The position numbers and the translations under genes were made by a program. Positions 1 through 6,922 of a stretch of DNA of 6,922 nt are shown here, piece after piece. This DNA is from Giardia intestinalis (Eukaryota), in the NCBI GenBank assembly GCA_000002435.2, contig AACB03000020.1. One strand, 5' to 3'. Every line of letters starts with the position of its first letter. Position 1 is the first letter of the stretch. Below the pieces are notes generated by a model, which did no database searches, was not told the DNA's origin, and was given only the letters and a program-made list of their open reading frames with translations.

Positions 1-60
1 ACGAGGTGCGTCGATGGGCCAGCCTGGCCGGATGCTTTTCCCCGGTCAACGAGGTGCGTC

Positions 61-111
61 GATGGGCCAACCTGTCCTGGCATGCTGTTTCCCCGGTCAA
101 CGAGGTGCGTC
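61..111. repeat. Representative canonical type-A unit (51 bp).
   Basis: The sequence gatgggccaacctgtcctggcatgctgtttccccggtcaacgaggtgcgtc is read directly. About 89 of the ~137 units are of this type. Confidence 0.9.
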
Positions 112-819
112 GATGGGCCAACCTGTCCTGGCATGCTGTTTCCCCCGGTCAACGAGGTGCGTCGATGGGCCAACCTGTCCTGGCATGCTGTTTCCCCGGT
201 CAACGAGGTGCGTCGATGGGCCAACCTGTCCTGGCATGCTGTTCCCCGGTCAACGAGGTGTCGATGGGCCTAGCTGGCCCGGAGTCCATTTCCCCGGTCA
301 ACGAGGTGCGTCGATGGGCCAACCTGTCCTGGCATGCTGTTTCCCCGGTCAACGAGGTGCGTCGATGGGCCAAGCTGCCTGGAGTCCCATTTCCCCGGTC
401 AACGAGGTGCGTCGATGGGCCAACCTGTCCTGGCATGCTGTTTTCCCCGGTCAACGAGGTGCGTCGATGGGCCAACCTGTCCTGGCATGCTGTTTCCCCG
501 GTCAACGAGGGCGTCGATGGGCCTAGCTGGCCCGGAGTCCCATTTCCCGGTCAACGAGGTGCGTCGATGGGCCAACCTGTCCTGGCATGCTGTTTCCCCG
601 GTCAACGAGGTGCGTCGATGGGCCAACCTGTCCTGGCATGCTGTTTCCCCGGTCAACGAGGTGCGTCGATGGGCCAACTGTCCTGGCATGCTGTTTCCCC
701 GGTCAACGAGGTGCGTCGATGGGCCAACCTGTCCTGGCATGCTGTTTCCCCGGTCAACGAGGTGCGTCGATGGGCCAACCTGTCCTGGCATGCTGTTTCC
801 CCGGTCAACGAGGTGCGTC

Positions 820-870
820 GATGGGCCAGCTGTCCTGGCAGTCCCATTTCCCCGGTCAACGAGGTGCGTC
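820..870. repeat. Chimeric A/B unit. The left half of the variable segment is A-like (agctgtcctggca) and the right half is B-like (gtcccattt).
   Basis: The sequence at ~828-849 reads agctgtcctggcagtcccattt. The flanking units on both sides are canonical type A. Confidence 0.75.
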
Positions 871-972
871 GATGGGCCAACCTGTCCTGGCATGCTGTTT
901 CCCCGGTCAACGAGGTGCGTCGATGGGCCAACCTGTCCTGGCATGCTGTTTCCCCGGTCAACGAGGTGCGTC

Positions 973-1023
973 GATGGGCCTAGCTGGCCCGGAGTCCCAT
1001 TTCCCCGGTCAACGAGGTGCGTC
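973..1023. repeat. Representative canonical type-B unit (51 bp).
   Basis: The sequence gatgggcctagctggcccggagtcccatttccccggtcaacgaggtgcgtc is read directly. About 42 units are of this type. Its variable segment matches type A at about 17 of 26 aligned positions, so B is a diverged homolog of A and not an unrelated insert. Confidence 0.9.
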
Positions 1024-1430
1024 GATGGGCCAACCTGTCCTGGCATGCTGTTTCCCCGGTCAACGAGGTGCGTCGATGGGCCAACCTGTCCTGGCATGCT
1101 GTTTCCCCGGTCAACGAGGTGCGTCGATGGGCCAACCTGTCCTGGCATGCTGTTTCCCCGGTCAACGAGGTGCGTCGATGGGCCAACCTGTCCTGGCATG
1201 CTGTTTCCCCGGTCAACGAGGTGCGTCGATGGGCCAACCTGTCCTGGCATGCTGTTTCCCCGGTCAACGAGGTGCGTCGATGGGCCAACCTGTCCTGGCA
1301 TGCTGTTCCCCGGTCAACGAGGTGCGTCGATGGGCCAACCTGTCCTGGCATGCTGTTTCCCCGGTCAACGAGGTGCGTCGATGGGCCAACCTGTCCTGGC
1401 ATGCTGTTTCCCCGGTCAACGAGGTGCGTC
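1024..1430. repeat. Homogeneous run of 8 consecutive near-identical type-A units.
   Basis: Units start at ~1024, 1075, 1126, 1177, 1228, 1279, 1329 and 1380, and all carry aacctgtcctggcatgctg. The only difference seen is a single T-length change (gttcccc) in the unit at ~1279. Confidence 0.85.
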
Positions 1431-1734
1431 GATGGGCCTAGCTGGCCCGGAGTCCCATTTCCCCGGTCAACGAGGTGCGTCGATGGGCCAACCTGTCCTG
1501 GCATGCTGTTTCCCCGGTCAACGAGGTGTCGATGGGCCAACCTGTCCTGGCATGCTGTTTCCCCGGTCAACGAGGTGCGTCGATGGGCCAACCTGTCCTG
1601 GCATGCTGTTTCCCCGGTCAACGAGGTGCGTCGATGGGCCAACCTGTCCTGGCATGCTGTTTCCCCGGTCAACGAGGTGCGTCGATGGGCCAACCTGTCC
1701 TGGCATGCTGTTTCCCCGGTCAACGAGGTGCGTC

Positions 1735-2027
1735 GATGGGCCTAGCTGGCCCGGAGTCCATTTCCCCGGTCAACGAGGTGTCGATGGGCCCTGTCCTGGA
1801 GCTGTTTCCCCGGTCAACGAGGTGCGTCGATGGGCCAACCTGTCCTGGCATGCTGTTTCCCCGGTCAACGAGGTGCGTCGATGGGCCAACCTGTCCTGGC
1901 ATGCTGTTTCCCCGGTCAACGAGGTGCGTCGATGGGCCTAGCTGGCCCGGAGTCTTTTCCCCGGTCAACGAGGTAGTCGATGGGCCAAGCTGGCCCGGAG
2001 TCCTTTCCCCGGTCAACGAGGTGCGTC
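1735..2027. repeat. Heterogeneous zone of 6 units containing several variants. These are a B unit with ccat, a 46-bp chimeric unit, two A units, and two short B variants (gagtcttttcccc and aagctggcccggagtcctttcccc). Two altered cores are present (gaggtgtcgatgg and gaggtagtcgatgg).
   Basis: Unit starts at ~1735, 1783, 1829, 1880, 1931 and 1979 have lengths 48, 46, 51, 51, 48 and 49 bp. All variant sequences were read directly. Confidence 0.7.
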
Positions 2028-2631
2028 GATGGGCCAACCTGTCCTGGCATGCTGTTTCCCCGGTCAACGAGGTGCGTCGATGGGCCAACCTGTCCTGGCA
2101 TGCTGTTTCCCCGGTCAACGAGGTGCGTCGATGGGCCAACCTGTCCTGGCATGCTGTTTCCCCGGTCAACGAGGTGCGTCGATGGGCCTAGCTGGCCCGG
2201 AGTCCTTTCCCCGGTCAACGAGGTGCGTCGATGGGCCTAGCTGGCCCGGAGTCCCATTTCCCCGGTCAACGAGGTGCGTCGATGGGCCAACCTGTCCTGG
2301 CATGCTGTTTCCCCGGTCAACGAGGTGCGTCGATGGGCCAACCTGTCCTGGCATGCTGTTTCCCCGGTCAACGAGGTGCGTCGATGGGCCTAGCTGGCCC
2401 GGAGTCCCATTTCCCCGGTCAACGAGGTAGTCGATGGGCCTAGCTGGCCCGGAGTCCCATTTCCCCGGTCAACGAGGTGCGTCGATGGGCCAACCTGTCC
2501 TGGCATGCTGTTTCCCCGGTCAACGAGGTGCGTCGATGGGCCAACCTGTCCTGGCATGCTGTTTCCCCGGTCAACGAGGTGCGTCGATGGGCCAGCTGGC
2601 CCGGAGTCCTTTCCCCGGTCAACGAGGTGTC

Positions 2632-2680
2632 GATGGGCCTAGCTGGCCCGGAGCTGTTTCCCCGGTCAACGAGGTGCGTC
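2632..2680. repeat. Chimeric B/A unit. The left half is B-like (tagctggcccggag) and the right half is A-like (ctgttt).
   Basis: The sequence at ~2640-2659 reads tagctggcccggagctgttt. It is preceded by a CG-deleted core. Confidence 0.75.
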
Positions 2681-2984
2681 GATGGGCCAACCTGTCCTGG
2701 CATGCTGTTTCCCCGGTCAACGAGGTGCGTCGATGGGCCTAGCTGGCCCGGAGTCCCATTTCCCCGGTCAACGAGGTGCGTCGATGGGCCAACCTGTCCT
2801 GGCATGCTGTTTCCCCGGTCAACGAGGTGTCGATGGGCCTAGCTGGCCCGGAGTCCCATTTCCCCGGTCAACGAGGTGCGTCGATGGGCCAACCTGTCCT
2901 GGCATGCTGTTTCCCCGGTCAACGAGGTGCGTCGATGGGCCTAGCTGGCCCGGAGTCCCATTTCCCCGGTCAACGAGGTGCGTC

Positions 2985-3288
2985 GATGGGCCAACCTGTC
3001 CTGGCATGCTGTTTCCCCGGTCAACGAGGTGCGTCGATGGGCCAACCTGTCCTGGCATGCTGTTTCCCCGGTCAACGAGGTGCGTCGATGGGCCAACCTG
3101 TCCTGGCATGCTGTTTCCCCGGTCAACGAGGTGCGTCGATGGGCCAACCTGTCCTGGCATGCTGTTTCCCCGGTCAACGAGGTGCGTCGATGGGCCAACC
3201 TGTCCTGGCATGCTGTTTCCCCGGTCAACGAGGTGTCGATGGGCCAACCTGTCCTGGCATGCTGTTTCCCCGGTCAACGAGGTGCGTC
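2985..3288. repeat. Homogeneous run of 6 consecutive type-A units.
   Basis: Units start at ~2985, 3036, 3087, 3138, 3189 and 3238. The run is flanked by type-B units at ~2934 and ~3289. The unit at ~3189 carries the recurrent CG-deleted core (gaggtgtcgatgg). Confidence 0.8.
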
Positions 3289-3339
3289 GATGGGCCTAGC
3301 TGGCCCGGAGTCCCATTTCCCCGGTCAACGAGGTGCGTC

Positions 3340-3694
3340 GATGGGCCAACCTGTCCTGGCATGCTGTTTCCCCGGTCAACGAGGTGCGTCGATGGGCCAA
3401 CCTGTCCTGGCATGCTGTTCCCCGGTCAACGAGGTGCGTCGATGGGCCAACCTGTCCTGGCATGCTGTTTCCCCGGTCAACGAGGTGCGTCGATGGGCCA
3501 ACCTGTCCTGGCATGCTGTTTCCCCGGTCAACGAGGTGCGTCGATGGGCCAACCTGTCCTGGCATGCTGTTTCCCCGGTCAACGAGGTGCGTCGATGGGC
3601 CAACCTGTCCTGGCATGCTGTTCCCCGGTCAACGAGGTGCGTCGATGGGCCAACCTGTCCTGGCATGCTGTTTCCCCGGTCAACGAGGTGCGTC
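3340..3694. repeat. Homogeneous run of 7 consecutive type-A units.
   Basis: Units start at ~3340, 3391, 3441, 3492, 3543, 3594 and 3644. Two of them carry the gttcccc one-T-shorter variant. Confidence 0.8.
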
Positions 3695-4754
3695 GATGGG
3701 CCTAGCTGGCCCGGAGTCCCATTTCCCGGTCAACGAGGTGCGTCGATGGGCCAACCTGTCCTGGCATGCTGTTTCCCCGGTCAACGAGGTGCGTCGATGG
3801 GCCAACCTGTCCTGGCATGCTGTTTCCCCGGTCAACGAGGTGCGTCGATGGGCCTAGCTGGCCCGGAGTCCCATTTCCCCGGTCAACGAGGTGCGTCGAT
3901 GGGCCAACCTGTCCTGGCATGCTGTTTCCCCGGTCAACGAGGTGCGTCGATGGGCCAACCTGTCCTGGCATGCTGTTTCCCCGGTCAACGAGGTGCGTCG
4001 ATGGGCCTGCTGGCCCGGAGTCCCATTTCCCCGGTCAACGAGGTGCGTCGATGGGCCAACCTGTCCTGGCATGCTGTTTCCCCGGTCAACGAGGTGCGTC
4101 GATGGGCCAACCTGTCCTGGCATGCTGTTTCCCAGGTCAACGAGGTGCGTCGATGGGCCAACCTGTCCTGGCATGCTGTTTCCCCGGTCAACGAGGTGCG
4201 TCGATGGGCCAACCTGTCCTGGCAGCTGTTTCCCCGGTCAACGAGGTGCGTCGATGGGCCAACTGTCCTGGCATGCTGTTTCCCCGGTCAACGAGGTGCG
4301 TCGATGGGCCAACCTGTCCTGGCATGCTGTTTCCCCGGTCAACGAGGTGCGTCGATGGGCCAACCTGTCCTGGCATGCTGTTTCCCCGGTCAACGAGGTG
4401 CGTCGATGGGCCAGCTGGCCCGGAGTCCCATTTCCCCGGTCAACGAGGTGTCGATGGCCTAGCTGGCCCGGAGTCCCATTTCCCCGGTCAACGAGGTGCG
4501 TCGATGGGCCAACCTGTCCTGGCATGCTGTTTCCCCGGTCAACGAGGTGCGTCGATGGGCCAACCTGTCCTGGCATGCTGTTTCCCCGGTCAACGAGGTG
4601 CGTCGATGGGCCTAGCTGGCCCGGTCCCATTTCCCCGGTCAACGAGGTGCGTCGATGGGCCAACCTGTCCTGGCATGCTGTTTCCCCGGTCAACGAGGTG
4701 CGTCGATGGGCCAACCTGTCCTGGCATGCTGTTTCCCGGTCAACGAGGTGCGTC

Positions 4755-5006
4755 GATGGGCCTAGCTGGCCCGGAGTCCCATTTCCCCGGTCAACGAGGT
4801 ATGTCGATGGGCCAGCTGGCCCGGAGTCCCATTTCCCCGGTCAACGAGGTGCGTCGATGGGCCAGCTGGCCCGGAGTCTTTCCCCGGTCAACGAGGTGCG
4901 TCGATGGGCCTAGCTGGCCCGGAGTCCCATGTTTCCCCGGTCAACGAGGTGCGTCGATGGGCCTAGCTGGCCCGGAGTCCCATTTCCCCGGTCAACGAGG
5001 TGCGTC
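4755..5006. repeat. Cluster of 5 consecutive B-family units, which is the longest B-run in the window. It includes B-prime units (gatgggccagctgg, lacking the T), a short variant (gagtctttcccc) and a unit with a G insertion (cccatgtttcccc).
   Basis: Units start at ~4755, 4806, 4856, 4903 and 4955, and all carry (t)agctggcccggag. The core at ~4797-4810 reads gaggtatgtcgatgg instead of gaggtgcgtcgatgg. Confidence 0.75.
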
Positions 5007-5815
5007 GATGGGCCAACCTGTCCTGGCATGCTGTTTCCCCGGTCAACGAGGTGCGTCGATGGGCCAACCTGTCCTGGCATGCTGTTTCCCCGGTCAACGA
5101 GGTGCGTCGATGGGCCTAGCTGGCCCGGAGTCCCATTTCCCCGGTCAACGAGGTGCGTCGATGGGCCAACCTGTCCTGGCATGCTGTTTCCCCGGTCAAC
5201 GAGGTGCGTCGATGGGCCAACCTGTCCTGGCATGCTGTTTCCCCGGTCAACGAGGTGCGTCGATGGGCCTAGCTGGCCCGGAGTCCCATTTCCCCGGTCA
5301 ACGAGGTGCGTCGATGGGCCAACCTGTCCTGGCATGCTGTTTCCCCGGTCAACGAGGTGCGTCGATGGGCCTAGCTGGCCCGGAGTCCTTTCCCCGGTCA
5401 ACGAGGTGTCGATGGGCCTAGCTGGCCCGGAGTCCCATTTCCCCGGTCAACGAGGTGTCGATGGGCCAACCTGTCCTGGCATGCTGTTTCCCCGGTCAAC
5501 GAGGTGCGTCGATGGGCCTAGCTGGCCCGGAGTCCCATTTTCCCCGGTCAACGAGGTGCGTCGATGGGCCAACCTGTCCTGGCATGCTGTTTCCCCGGTC
5601 AACGAGGTGCGTCGATGGGCCAACCTGTCCTGGCATGCTGTTTCCCCGGTCAACGAGGTGCGTCGATGGGCCAACCTGTCCTGGCATGCTGTTTCCCCGG
5701 TCAACGAGGTGCGTCGATGGGCCAACCTGTCCTGGCATGCTGTTTCCCCGGTCAACGAGGTGTCGATGGGCCTAGCTGTCCCGGAGTCCCATTTCCCCGG
5801 TCAACGAGGTGCGTC

Positions 5816-5863
5816 GATGGGCCTAACCTGGCCTGGAGCTTTCCCCGGTCAACGAGGTGCGTC
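5816..5863. repeat. Divergent or chimeric unit (taacctggcctggagcttt) that mixes an A-like aacctg with a B-like g(c)ctggag.
   Basis: Read directly. The unit is 48 bp long. It is flanked by a B variant (tagctgtcccggag, a G-to-T change) on the left and a canonical A unit on the right. Confidence 0.65.
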
Positions 5864-5965
5864 GATGGGCCAACCTGTCCTGGCATGCTGTTTCCCCGGT
5901 CAACGAGGTGCGTCGATGGGCCAACCTGTCCTGGCATGCTGTTTCCCCGGTCAACGAGGTGCGTC

Positions 5966-6012
5966 GATGGGCCAGCTGGCCCGGATGCTTTCCCCGGTCA
6001 ACGAGGTGCGTC
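5966..6012. repeat. Chimeric B-prime/A unit (agctggcccggatgcttt). It is nearly identical to the first full unit in the window at 13-60 (agcctggccggatgctttt).
   Basis: Both variable segments were read directly. The same chimera type therefore occurs twice, about 5.95 kb apart. Confidence 0.7.
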
Positions 6013-6715
6013 GATGGGCCAACCTGTCCTGGCATGCTGTTTCCCCGGTCAACGAGGTATGTCGATGGGCCTAGCTGGCCCGGAGTCCCATTTCCCCGGT
6101 CAACGAGGTGCGTCGATGGGCCAACCTGTCCTGGCATGCTGTTTCCCCGGTCAACGAGGTGCGTCGATGGGCCAACCTGTCCTGGCATGCTGTTTCCCCG
6201 GTCAACGAGGTGCGTCGATGGGCCAGCTGGCCCGGCCCATTTCCCCGGTCAACGAGGTGCGTCGATGGGCCTAGCTGGCCCGGAGTCCATTTCCCCGGTC
6301 AACGAGGTGTCGATGGGCCTAGCTGGCCCGGAGTCTTTCCCCGGTCAACGAGGTGCGTCGATGGGCCAACCTGTCCTGGCATGCTGTTTCCCCGGTCAAC
6401 GAGGTGCGTCGATGGGCCAACCTGTCCTGGCATGCTGTTTCCCCGGTCAACGAGGTGCGTCGATGGGCCAACCTGTCCTGGCAGCTGTTTCCCCGGTCAA
6501 CGAGGTGCGTCGATGGGCCTAGCTGGCCCGGAGTCCCATTTCCCCGGTCAACGAGGTGCGTCGATGGGCCAACCTGTCCTGGCATGCTGTTTCCCCGGTC
6601 AACGAGGTGCGTCGATGGGCCAACCTGTCCTGGCATGCTGTTTCCCCGGTCAACGAGGTGCGTCGATGGGCCAACCTGTCCTGGCATGCTGTTTCCCCGG
6701 TCAACGAGGTGCGTC

Positions 6716-6866
6716 GATGGGCCTAGCTGGCCCGGAGTCCCATTTCCCCGGTCAACGAGGTGTCGATGGGCCTAGCTGGCCCGGAGTCCCATTTCCCCGG
6801 TCAACGAGGTGCGTCGATGGGCCTAGCTGGCCCGGAGTCCCATTTCCCCGGTCAACGAGGTGCGTC
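6716..6866. repeat. Run of 3 consecutive canonical type-B units at the window end.
   Basis: Units start at ~6716, 6765 and 6816, each carrying tagctggcccggagtcccattt. A CG-deleted core precedes the unit at 6765. Confidence 0.8.
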
Positions 6867-6922
6867 GATGGGCCAACCTGTCCTGGCATGCTGTTTCCCC
6901 GGTCAACGAGGTGCGTCGATGG

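What the first reader, a model, noticed from the sequence alone, without database searches (positions are those of the whole stretch)
255..6767. Recurrent core variants are linked to a downstream B-type variable segment (13 of 16 cases)
The core normally reads gaggtgcgtcgatgg. A 2-bp-shorter form, gaggtgtcgatgg, occurs 12 times. Its positions are ~255, 1525, 1776, 2625, 2825, 3231, 4446, 5404, 5453, 5757, 6305 and 6759. In 9 of these 12 the next variable segment begins with the B-type tagctgg, although B units make up only about one third of the array. Two other core variants show the same pattern. The form gaggtagtcgatgg occurs at ~1971 and ~2424, and gaggtatgtcgatgg occurs at ~4797 and ~6055. 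All four of these are followed by B-family units. This suggests a third haplotype of the unit, a variant core joined to a B variable segment, that spreads as a linked block. It also suggests that the natural exchange phase of the repeat places the right half of the core with the following variable segment. The 2-bp deletion is not in a homopolymer and is identical every time, so it is unlikely to be random sequencing error.
Basis: seen in the sequence. Interest (0 to 1): 0.5.

Follow-up and report, generated by a model that had tools for sequence, protein, structure and literature searches.

The report
Noisy coding repeat in Giardia kinase
The window is a long protein-coding 51-base repeat at the tail of a Giardia NEK kinase gene, and the "2-bp-shorter core" linked to B units is most likely a long-read consensus error at a truly variable Thr-His codon pair, not a real deletion haplotype.

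Summary
The counts are nearly right: 12 + 2 + 2 variant cores at the stated places, plus a 17th at 507. B follows 8 of the 12 deleted cores (not 9) and 12 of all 16 (not 13). The enrichment is real (Fisher p = 3e-4). It is two-sided, though. An upstream B also matters (p = 0.008), and 8 of 14 B-B junction cores are variant against 2 of 60 A-A.

The array is not anonymous satellite DNA. Its minus strand encodes a 17-residue repeat, DRGNSMPGQVGPSTHLV (A) or DRGNGTPGQLGPSTHLV (B), at the C-terminus of a Giardia duodenalis NEK kinase. Window A differs from the assemblage E unit by 7 synonymous and 0 nonsynonymous changes.

All three main core variants hit the Thr-His codon junction (acG|Cac). Short-read and 454 contigs of other assemblage-A isolates run in frame into the same array. 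All 14 complete units there are exactly 51 bp. They carry in-frame alleles at this dinucleotide (aca-cac, and aca-tac = His to Tyr) and never a deletion.

The window has 39 frameshifting units, 86 deleted against 7 inserted bases, and A/B mosaics with length changes. This is long-read consensus noise. A minority core allele near B units is probably real; the 2-bp deletion and the inferred exchange phase are not supported.

The parts
1..6922 (-). 51-bp (17-codon) tandem array of about 137 units that fills the window. It is read on the minus strand as DRGNSMPGQVGPSTHLV (A, 92 units) and DRGNGTPGQLGPSTHLV (B, 45 units). It forms the C-terminal repeat tail of a Giardia NEK-family kinase gene.
   Evidence: TRF finds period 51 and 137.3 copies. 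Unit parse. phmmer hit to the Giardia kinase P0003. The same repeat lies at the 3' end of the orthologous gene in L018, L019, L024-L027 and L029. Window A against P15 A shows 7 synonymous and 0 nonsynonymous differences.
399..1301 (-). Longest open stretch on the coding strand (300 aa). About the first 200 aa are in the gene frame. It was used as the query that identified the gene.
255..267 (+). 2-bp-shorter core gaggtgtcgatgg (A upstream, B downstream)
507..520 (+).
1523..1535 (+). 2-bp-shorter core (A upstream, A downstream)
1775..1787 (+). 2-bp-shorter core (B upstream, A-like mosaic 44-bp unit downstream)
1970..1983 (+). Core gaggtagtcgatgg (A at the first polymorphic base, second base missing), at a B-B junction
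2424..2437 (+). Core gaggtagtcgatgg, at a B-B junction
2624..2636 (+). 2-bp-shorter core, at a B-B junction
2824..2836 (+). 2-bp-shorter core (A upstream, B downstream)
3230..3242 (+). 2-bp-shorter core (A upstream, A downstream)
4445..4457 (+). 2-bp-shorter core, at a B-B junction. The following ggg is also shortened to gg.
4796..4810 (+). Full-length in-frame variant core gaggtATgtcgatgg. On the coding strand this is aca-tac, Thr (synonymous) plus His to Tyr. It lies at a B-B junction.
   Evidence: The same allele occurs in L024 and L030.
5403..5415 (+). 2-bp-shorter core, at a B-B junction
5452..5464 (+). 2-bp-shorter core (B upstream, A downstream)
5757..5769 (+). 2-bp-shorter core (A upstream; the downstream B carries one A-state base, tagctgt)
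6054..6068 (+). Full-length in-frame variant core gaggtATgtcgatgg (A upstream, B downstream)
6304..6316 (+). 2-bp-shorter core, at a B-B junction
6757..6769 (+). 2-bp-shorter core, at a B-B junction

Best explanation
The window is part of a very long protein-coding minisatellite. One unit is 51 bp, or 17 codons, read on the minus strand. It forms the C-terminal tail of a Giardia duodenalis (assemblage-A-like) NEK-family kinase. The 'core' encodes GPSTHLV.

All three main core variants change one dinucleotide, the junction of the Thr and His codons (acG|Cac). That site is truly polymorphic in this repeat family, with in-frame alleles aca-cac (silent) and aca-tac (His to Tyr).

In this window most copies of the minority allele have been rendered as 1-2 bp deletions by an imperfect long-read consensus. 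gaggt--gtcgatgg is exactly the longest common subsequence of the GC and AT alleles, and it is also a (gt)3 to (gt)2 contraction of the GT allele. The same process produced the many other deletions and the A/B mosaic units, mostly in the minority B units.

The statistical link to B units is real. It reflects where the minority core allele sits, next to B units on either side and above all between two B units. It does not reflect a deletion-bearing haplotype with a defined exchange phase.

Shown: the array is coding, its gene identity, the polymorphism at this site in other isolates, the two-sided association, and the noise profile. Inferred: that the deletions are artefacts of consensus calling, and which in-frame allele underlies each one.
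For: 1. Gene identity. phmmer of window ORF 399-1301(-) hits the C-terminus of P0003, a Ser/Thr kinase of G. duodenalis assemblage B, at 74% identity over 54 aa. The homologous 51-bp units lie at the 3' end of that gene in L018, L019 and L029. Assemblage-A contigs run from the unique part of the gene straight into units identical to window B, and one base different from window A. The upstream-kinase cluster includes the WB and DH proteins.

2. Coding constraint. Window A against P15 A shows 7 synonymous and 0 nonsynonymous differences (P = 7e-5 under neutrality). Window B against P15 B shows 7 and 1. Every other frame except the wobble-sharing antisense one shows 7-8 amino-acid differences. 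The ORF is open through the array to the contig end in L024 (962 aa) and L025 (930 aa).

3. Independent arrays. All 14 complete units in L024-L027 are exactly 51 bp, against 44 of 136 units of another length in the window (Fisher p = 0.011). The cores there are acg-cac, aca-cac or aca-tac. The AT allele is seen in DH (L024) and in SRR21529626 (L030).

4. Noise signature in the window. There are 86 deleted, 7 inserted and 7 substituted bases, and only one substitution lies outside the GC site. 39 of 136 units are frameshifting, and only 5 of 44 length changes are multiples of 3. ttt and cccc runs show homopolymer slips. 11 units are A/B mosaics, and 9 of them have changed length although A and B are collinear. 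B segments deviate in 25 of 45 units and A segments in 15 of 92 (p = 5.5e-6).

5. Site specificity. Outside homopolymers, the GC dinucleotide is the only indel hot spot in the 32 columns shared by A and B, and it is also their only recurrent substitution site.

6. The nearest A/B difference lies 12 nt downstream and 19 nt upstream of the dinucleotide (sequence). Local sequence context therefore cannot explain the B dependence.

7. Published long-read Giardia assemblage-A assemblies used PacBio RS II reads. One used Canu and Quiver, including separately assembled leftover reads (PMC7000408). Another used miniasm, Racon and Pilon (PMC10132058).
Against: - No reads are available, so the artefact is inferred and not observed.
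- Twelve identical 2-bp deletions is high reproducibility for an artefact.
- A mixed-pileup model would also predict partial forms such as gaggtggtcgatgg, and these are absent.
- The silent GT allele seen in other isolates is absent from the window.
- In the other isolates the variant cores lie in A-type units, not B units. The B linkage therefore has no external replication.
- The test of whether deletions fall on A/B-polymorphic columns is inconclusive, because alignment is ambiguous: 27 to 69 of 86 deleted bases, depending on placement.
- The sequencing platform and source assembly of the window are unknown.
Confidence: 0.65

Rival explanations
1. The 2-bp-deleted core is a real sequence variant that forms a third unit haplotype together with the downstream B segment. 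It spreads through the array by unequal exchange or gene conversion, in a phase that keeps the right half of the core with the following segment.
For: The deletion is identical 12 times and is not in a homopolymer. It is significantly enriched before B units. Type-linked core variants do exist in this repeat family: in assemblage B, PSAHLV follows NSMPGQM and PSTHLV follows NGGPGQL.
Against: The deletion would frameshift a repeat under strong purifying selection. It is absent from 14 short-read or 454 units of the same array in other isolates. An upstream B matters independently and the asymmetry is not significant. No multi-unit block with rare variants recurs. Three different variants at one dinucleotide (AT, A-, --) would need several stacked mutations at a single site. 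The window is full of other frameshifting deletions.
Confidence: 0.1
2. A purely technical error with no underlying polymorphism. The core deletions arise from mis-stacked or haplotype-mixed long reads in B-rich parts of the array, or from a platform-specific systematic miscall. All true cores would then be canonical GC.
For: The window shows a general deletion-biased noise profile. B units are much noisier than A units, and mosaics have length changes. Giardia is tetraploid (stated in PMC10132058), so minisatellite alleles on different chromosome copies could differ. That last step is my inference.
Against: Mis-registered reads carry the same canonical core, so mixing alone should not damage it. 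The nearest A/B difference is 12-19 nt away. The base A appears at the first polymorphic position in four units (AT twice and A- twice), while only one other novel substitution occurs in 6.9 kb. The AT allele is real in two other isolates.
Confidence: 0.17
3. The array in this genome is no longer translated beyond its first units, or the window is a separate non-coding copy. It is decaying, and the indels, including the 2-bp deletion, are real mutations homogenised by concerted evolution.
For: No open frame longer than 304 codons exists on the coding strand. The window shows neither end of the array, so its position in the gene is inferred from the matching junction contigs.
Against: 86 deleted bases against one novel substitution outside the GC site is not a natural mutation spectrum. 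77 of 92 A units are still identical. The unit consensus is under purifying selection between lineages. Short-read contigs of related isolates are in frame as far as they reach.
Confidence: 0.08

Closest known systems
Protein-coding minisatellites (coding VNTRs), i.e. tandem-repeat tails of proteins. Here specifically the C-terminal repeat of the Giardia NEK kinase orthologs KWX12190.1 (assemblage B BAH15c1), ESU43930.1 (GS_B) and the P15 'Kinase, NEK'.
   Same: The unit is a multiple of 3 (51 bp, 17 aa). It sits at the same position at the 3' end of the same gene, with the same peptide (DRGN[SM/GT]PGQ.GPSTHLV). Both SM-type and GT-type units are present in assemblages A, B and E. The repeat is in frame in the orthologs. 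Copy number differs between isolates: 2.5 units in BAH15c1 and 6.5 in GS_B.
   Different: The window holds at least 137 units, against 2.5 to about 6.5 in the assemblage B and E assemblies. As written it is broken by 39 frameshifts. The A/B order shows no detectable periodicity, whereas assemblage B strictly alternates and P15 reads BAA-BAA.
GC-rich minisatellites with interspersed variant repeats (the pattern read by minisatellite variant repeat mapping, as at human MS32). This comparison comes from my own knowledge.
   Same: The unit is tens of bp long, the array is 64% GC and kilobases long, and two main unit types are interspersed without a higher-order period.
   Different: This array is coding and under purifying selection. 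No data exist here on germline-like instability or polarity.
Long-read consensus errors inside tandem repeats. General problem reviewed in PMC6868369, listed.
   Same: Errors are deletion-biased and include homopolymer slips. Noise is concentrated in the minority repeat variant, and hybrid units have length changes.
   Different: The reads could not be examined. The exact recurrence of one 2-bp deletion needs an underlying minority allele or a short (gt)3 run, not random error.

Membership tests
Protein-coding tandem repeat (coding minisatellite) | Unit length is a multiple of three | tested here: met
   Period 51 = 17 codons. 92 of 136 units are exactly 51 bp.
Protein-coding tandem repeat (coding minisatellite) | Purifying selection on the encoded peptide between lineages | tested here: met
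   Window A against P15 A: 7 synonymous and 0 nonsynonymous differences (P = 7e-5). Window B against P15 B: 7 and 1.
Protein-coding tandem repeat (coding minisatellite) | The ORF of the host gene continues in frame through the array | tested here: inconclusive
   Met in related loci: L024 (962 aa, 0 stops), L025 (930 aa, 0 stops) and L029 with P0078. Not met in the window as written: 39 frameshifting units, and the longest open stretch is 304 codons. I attribute this to consensus errors.
Giardia NEK-family kinase gene (host gene) | Protein kinase domain at the N-terminus, and annotation as NEK in orthologs | tested here: met
   Pfam Pkinase matches P0003 at 9e-30 and P0061 at 2e-29. The source name is 'Kinase, NEK [Giardia lamblia P15]'. 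The window itself contains only the repeat tail. The link to the gene rests on junction contigs L020 and L024-L028.
Giardia NEK-family kinase gene (host gene) | Intact catalytic-loop HRD motif (active kinase) | tested here: not met
   P0003, P0061 and P0078 read HRNIRPE instead of HRD. This suggests a catalytically inactive kinase, by my own knowledge of the motif.
Minisatellite with interspersed variant repeats | Two or more unit variants interspersed along one array, with copy number differing between individuals | tested here: met
   A and B are interspersed with no lag autocorrelation (B-B adjacency 14 observed, 14.6 expected). Copy number differs between two assemblage B isolates. Variation in length among assemblage A isolates could not be tested.
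Satellite DNA with higher-order repeat structure | Multi-unit blocks that recur, carrying the same rare variants | tested here: not met
   No repeated string of units with two or more rare forms was found. TRF reports only period 51.
CRISPR array | Conserved repeats separated by many different spacers, in a prokaryote or virus | tested here: not met
   There are only two 'spacer' types plus noisy derivatives. The locus is a eukaryotic gene. No match was found in prokaryotic, viral or metagenomic DNA.

The most novel reading that the evidence does not exclude
The frameshifting cores are real. The giant NEK tail is a hypermutable coding minisatellite in which B-linked frameshift units end translation at different depths on different chromosome copies. 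This would give a built-in, phase-variation-like way to vary the length of the kinase's repeat tail in a tetraploid parasite.
Probability: 0.05. Interest if true: 0.6.

Novelty: new member of a known kind. Interest (0 to 1): 0.2.

Why it matters
For the scan, an apparent "third haplotype" in an anonymous satellite becomes a coding repeat seen through long-read consensus noise. Recurrent identical indels inside tandem arrays should not be read as biology without accurate reads.

For Giardia biology, one NEK-family (probably inactive) kinase appears to carry a repeat tail of at least 137 x 17 residues (more than 2,300 aa) in an assemblage-A-like genome. Assemblies of assemblages B and E show only 2.5 to 6.5 units. 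Real variant units (SM, GT and a His to Tyr form) are present. Such a gene will be mis-annotated or called a pseudogene in current long-read assemblies. The array could serve as a high-resolution typing marker if sequenced accurately.

Tried and rejected
- Exact DNA searches with the 30-mer and the 22-mer core found nothing in genome contigs (bacteria and archaea), viral contigs or metagenome contigs.
- An 18-mer gave 17 single hits in metagenomes. BLAST showed 18-21 nt matches only, so they are chance.
- blastn against plasmids and phages found nothing.
- Rfam gave only a chance miRNA-like hit below threshold.
- Literature string searches for the DNA and peptide motifs found nothing.
- A protein search with five reading frames concatenated found nothing. 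The exhaustive phmmer of a single window ORF found the gene.
- A higher-order repeat or block structure was tested and not found.
- I tested whether deletions fall on A/B-polymorphic columns. The result is inconclusive because alignment is ambiguous: 27 to 69 of 86 deleted bases.
- I tested whether core variants mark locally bad consensus. Once B-ness is taken into account there is no significant effect of an upstream deviant unit, so this was rejected as the driver.
- CpG-methylation miscalls were considered for GC to AT. This was rejected because symmetric CpG effects would hit the C and the following G, not the G and C seen here. This is sequence reasoning only.
- CRISPR and non-coding satellite readings were rejected (see the membership tests).
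- The NCBI WB chromosome could not be fetched. The look-up of the WB protein returned only a short Logan contig.

Full report
**What is in the window**

The whole 6,922-base window is one tandem array with period 51 and 137.3 copies. I split it at the invariant caacgagg, which gives 137 units. Each unit has a 15-nt core, normally gaggtgcgtcgatgg, and a 32-nt segment of two kinds. Type A is gccaacctgtcctggcatgctgtttccccggt, with 92 units of which 77 are exact. Type B is gcctagctggcccggagtcccatttccccggt, with 45 units of which 20 are exact. A and B are collinear and differ at 9 positions.

**Check of the observation**

There are 12 gaggtgtcgatgg, 2 gaggtagtcgatgg and 2 gaggtatgtcgatgg.
- A 17th variant, gagggcgtcgatgg at 507, was missed.
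- The linkage count is slightly too high. B follows 8 of the 12 deleted cores (not 9) and 12 of the 16 (not 13). With the extra variant it is 13 of 17.
- The enrichment is significant. Fisher gives p = 3e-4 for the 16, p = 1e-4 for the 17, and p = 0.02 for the deletion alone.
- The association is two-sided. The variant-core rate is 2/60 between A and A, 5/31 for A then B, 2/31 for B then A, and 8/14 between two B units.
- In a logistic model both neighbours contribute: upstream OR 4.7 (p = 0.008) and downstream OR 10.9 (p = 3e-5). Asymmetry is not significant (p = 0.26).
- A and B are interspersed with no detectable periodicity. No multi-unit block with rare variants recurs, and 29 of 38 unit forms are singletons. 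Nothing therefore shows spread as a block.

**What the array is**

DNA searches of prokaryotic, viral, metagenomic, plasmid and phage collections found no relatives. Rfam found nothing that reaches its threshold.

An exhaustive phmmer search with the minus-strand ORF 399-1301 hit the C-terminal end of P0003 at 74% identity over 54 aa. P0003 is a Ser/Thr kinase of Giardia duodenalis assemblage B. Its ortholog in isolate P15 (assemblage E) is named 'Kinase, NEK'. Both proteins have an N-terminal Pkinase domain.

At the DNA level, the 3' ends of these genes carry 51-bp units plainly homologous to the reverse complement of the window's unit. There are 2.5 units in BAH15c1 (L018), about 6 in P15 (L019) and 6.5 in GS_B (L029, P0078). 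The array ends a few codons before the stop codon.

The upstream gene's protein cluster contains the WB and DH (assemblage A) proteins. Contigs of that lineage run from the unique part of the NEK gene directly into units identical to window B, and one base different from window A.

The window is therefore the repeat tail of this NEK gene in an assemblage-A-like genome, read on the minus strand. Unit A encodes DRGNSMPGQVGPSTHLV and unit B encodes DRGNGTPGQLGPSTHLV.

**Coding constraint**

Window A and the P15 A-type unit differ at 7 nucleotides. All 7 are synonymous in this frame (P = 7e-5 under neutrality). Window B against P15 B gives 7 synonymous and 1 nonsynonymous. Apart from the antisense frame that shares the wobble positions, all other frames show 7-8 amino-acid differences. 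The SM/GT dimorphism is present in assemblages A, B and E, so it predates their split.

**What the core variants are in that frame**

All three main variants, AT, A- and --, alter one dinucleotide. It is the last base of the Thr codon and the first base of the His codon (acG|Cac on the coding strand). AT gives aca-tac, a silent Thr change plus His to Tyr, and stays in frame. The other forms are frameshifts.

Independent assemblies of other assemblage-A isolates show that this site is truly polymorphic, with in-frame alleles only:

- DH (L024, 454 data) has aca-tac in the first unit and aca-cac in two later units.
- Three metagenome contigs (L025-L027) each have aca-cac in one unit.
- An Illumina contig from SRR21529626 (L030) has aca-tac in the first unit.

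All 14 complete units in L024-L027 are exactly 51 bp, against 44 of 136 units of another length in the window (p = 0.011). The NEK ORF is open through them to the contig ends.

**Noise profile of the window**

I aligned every unit to a profile that accepts either the A or the B state.

- This gives 86 deleted, 7 inserted and 7 substituted bases. Six of the substitutions are at the GC site and only one is elsewhere.
- 39 of 136 units would shift the frame, and only 5 of 44 length changes are multiples of three.
- The ttt and cccc runs show typical homopolymer slips.
- Eleven units are A/B mosaics. Nine of them changed length although A and B are collinear, which homologous exchange would not produce.
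- B segments deviate from their type in 25 of 45 units, and A segments in 15 of 92 (p = 5.5e-6).
- Outside homopolymers, the GC dinucleotide is the only indel hot spot in the 32 columns shared by A and B.

This is the profile of an imperfect long-read consensus, not of mutation.

Published assemblage-A long-read assemblies used PacBio RS II reads. One used Canu and Quiver, including separately assembled leftover reads (PMC7000408). Another used miniasm, Racon and Pilon (PMC10132058). I could not establish which record the window comes from.

**Most likely mechanism**

A minority in-frame core allele exists in this array, either aca-tac or aca-cac. It sits preferentially next to B units, most often between two B units. 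The long-read consensus failed to resolve it against the majority GC allele and left a gap.

The 2-bp-shorter form is exactly the longest common subsequence of gaggtGCgtcgatgg and gaggtATgtcgatgg. It is equally a (gt)3 to (gt)2 contraction of gaggtGTgtcgatgg. The A- form is a half-resolved AT.

From my own knowledge, consensus methods that encode mismatches as insertion-deletion pairs drop both alleles when neither reaches half of the coverage. This step is inferred and not shown.

The nearest A/B difference is 12 nt downstream and 19 nt upstream of the dinucleotide, so simple sequence-context miscalling does not explain the B dependence. Mis-registered reads alone would carry the same canonical core. 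An underlying real allele is therefore the more economical assumption.

**Weak points**

- No reads were available.
- Twelve identical deletions is very reproducible for an artefact.
- Some partial forms predicted by a mixing model are absent.
- The GT allele is absent from the window.
- The B linkage is not replicated in the few units available from other isolates.
- The test of deletions against polymorphic columns is inconclusive, at 27 to 69 of 86 depending on placement.

**Verdict**

A B-associated variant core very likely exists. The literal 2-bp deletion, the spread as a linked block and the inferred exchange phase are not supported.

The feature is a new member of a known kind: a coding minisatellite with interspersed variant units. 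In this lineage it is expanded to at least 137 units, and here it is seen through assembly noise. Interest is low to modest.

Noticed in passing
window 507-520: There is a 17th variant core, gagggcgtcgatgg, with a 1-bp deletion next to the same dinucleotide.
   Followed up: yes
window 1-46, 350-399, 806-856, 1771-1814, 2620-2666, 5802-5849, 5952-5998: These units mix A-specific and B-specific bases and mostly have changed length (for example a 44-bp unit at 1771). They look like consensus of mixed A and B signal rather than true recombinants, because A and B are collinear.
   Followed up: partly
L019 12676-12725 (P15, ACVC01000096.1): One P15 unit is 50 bp (aacgggacacc shortened to aacggacacc, a ggg to gg slip). 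The annotated protein P0061 therefore runs into another frame (…DRGNGHRARWVRPRTSLIGETAC…) and ends at a different stop. This is probably a 454 homopolymer error, so the deposited protein's C-terminus is likely wrong.
   Followed up: partly
P0003, P0061 and P0078, about residues 155-162 (L018 gene 10001-12685): The kinase catalytic loop reads HRNIRPE instead of HRD..., so this NEK is probably catalytically inactive. PMC10132058 notes that many Giardia NEKs are predicted to lack catalytic function.
   Followed up: no
L018 12530-12665 against L029 about 5640-5880: Assemblage B arrays strictly alternate two diverged units (NSMPGQMTPSAHLV and NGGPGQLAPSTHLV). They differ in copy number between isolates: one dimer in BAH15c1 (894 aa) and three in GS_B (962 aa). 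Here the core residue (A or T) is strictly linked to the unit type.
   Followed up: partly
L024 14147-14471; L025-L027 tails: In DH and three metagenome contigs the A-type unit reads agcatCcc (Ser-Ile-Pro), where the window reads agcatGcc (Ser-Met-Pro). The window therefore comes from a different assemblage-A sublineage. This single base could be a sub-assemblage marker.
   Followed up: no
L020, L028, L031 and L032 contig ends; L030 end: Logan short-read contigs stop exactly 31 nt after the last unique base of the gene-array junction, i.e. one k-mer. The isolate with the rare AT core in the first unit extends 24 nt further. This is consistent with a long array that short reads cannot cross.
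   Followed up: partly
L022 10760-10798 (ERR3333381): A more distant Giardia lineage, whose upstream kinase is 60% identical to the assemblage B one, also ends its NEK ortholog contig with …KHLVDRGK. The repeat tail therefore seems conserved beyond assemblages A, B and E.
   Followed up: no
L019 12523-12810: The P15 array reads B-A-A'-B-A-A, where A' carries a synonymous core variant (ggcccatct instead of ggtccgtcc) just before the next B unit.
   Followed up: partly
(method): A word-indexed protein search with five reading frames concatenated missed the Giardia hit, because only the 8,000 candidates sharing most words were scored. The exhaustive search with a single frame found it.
   Followed up: yes
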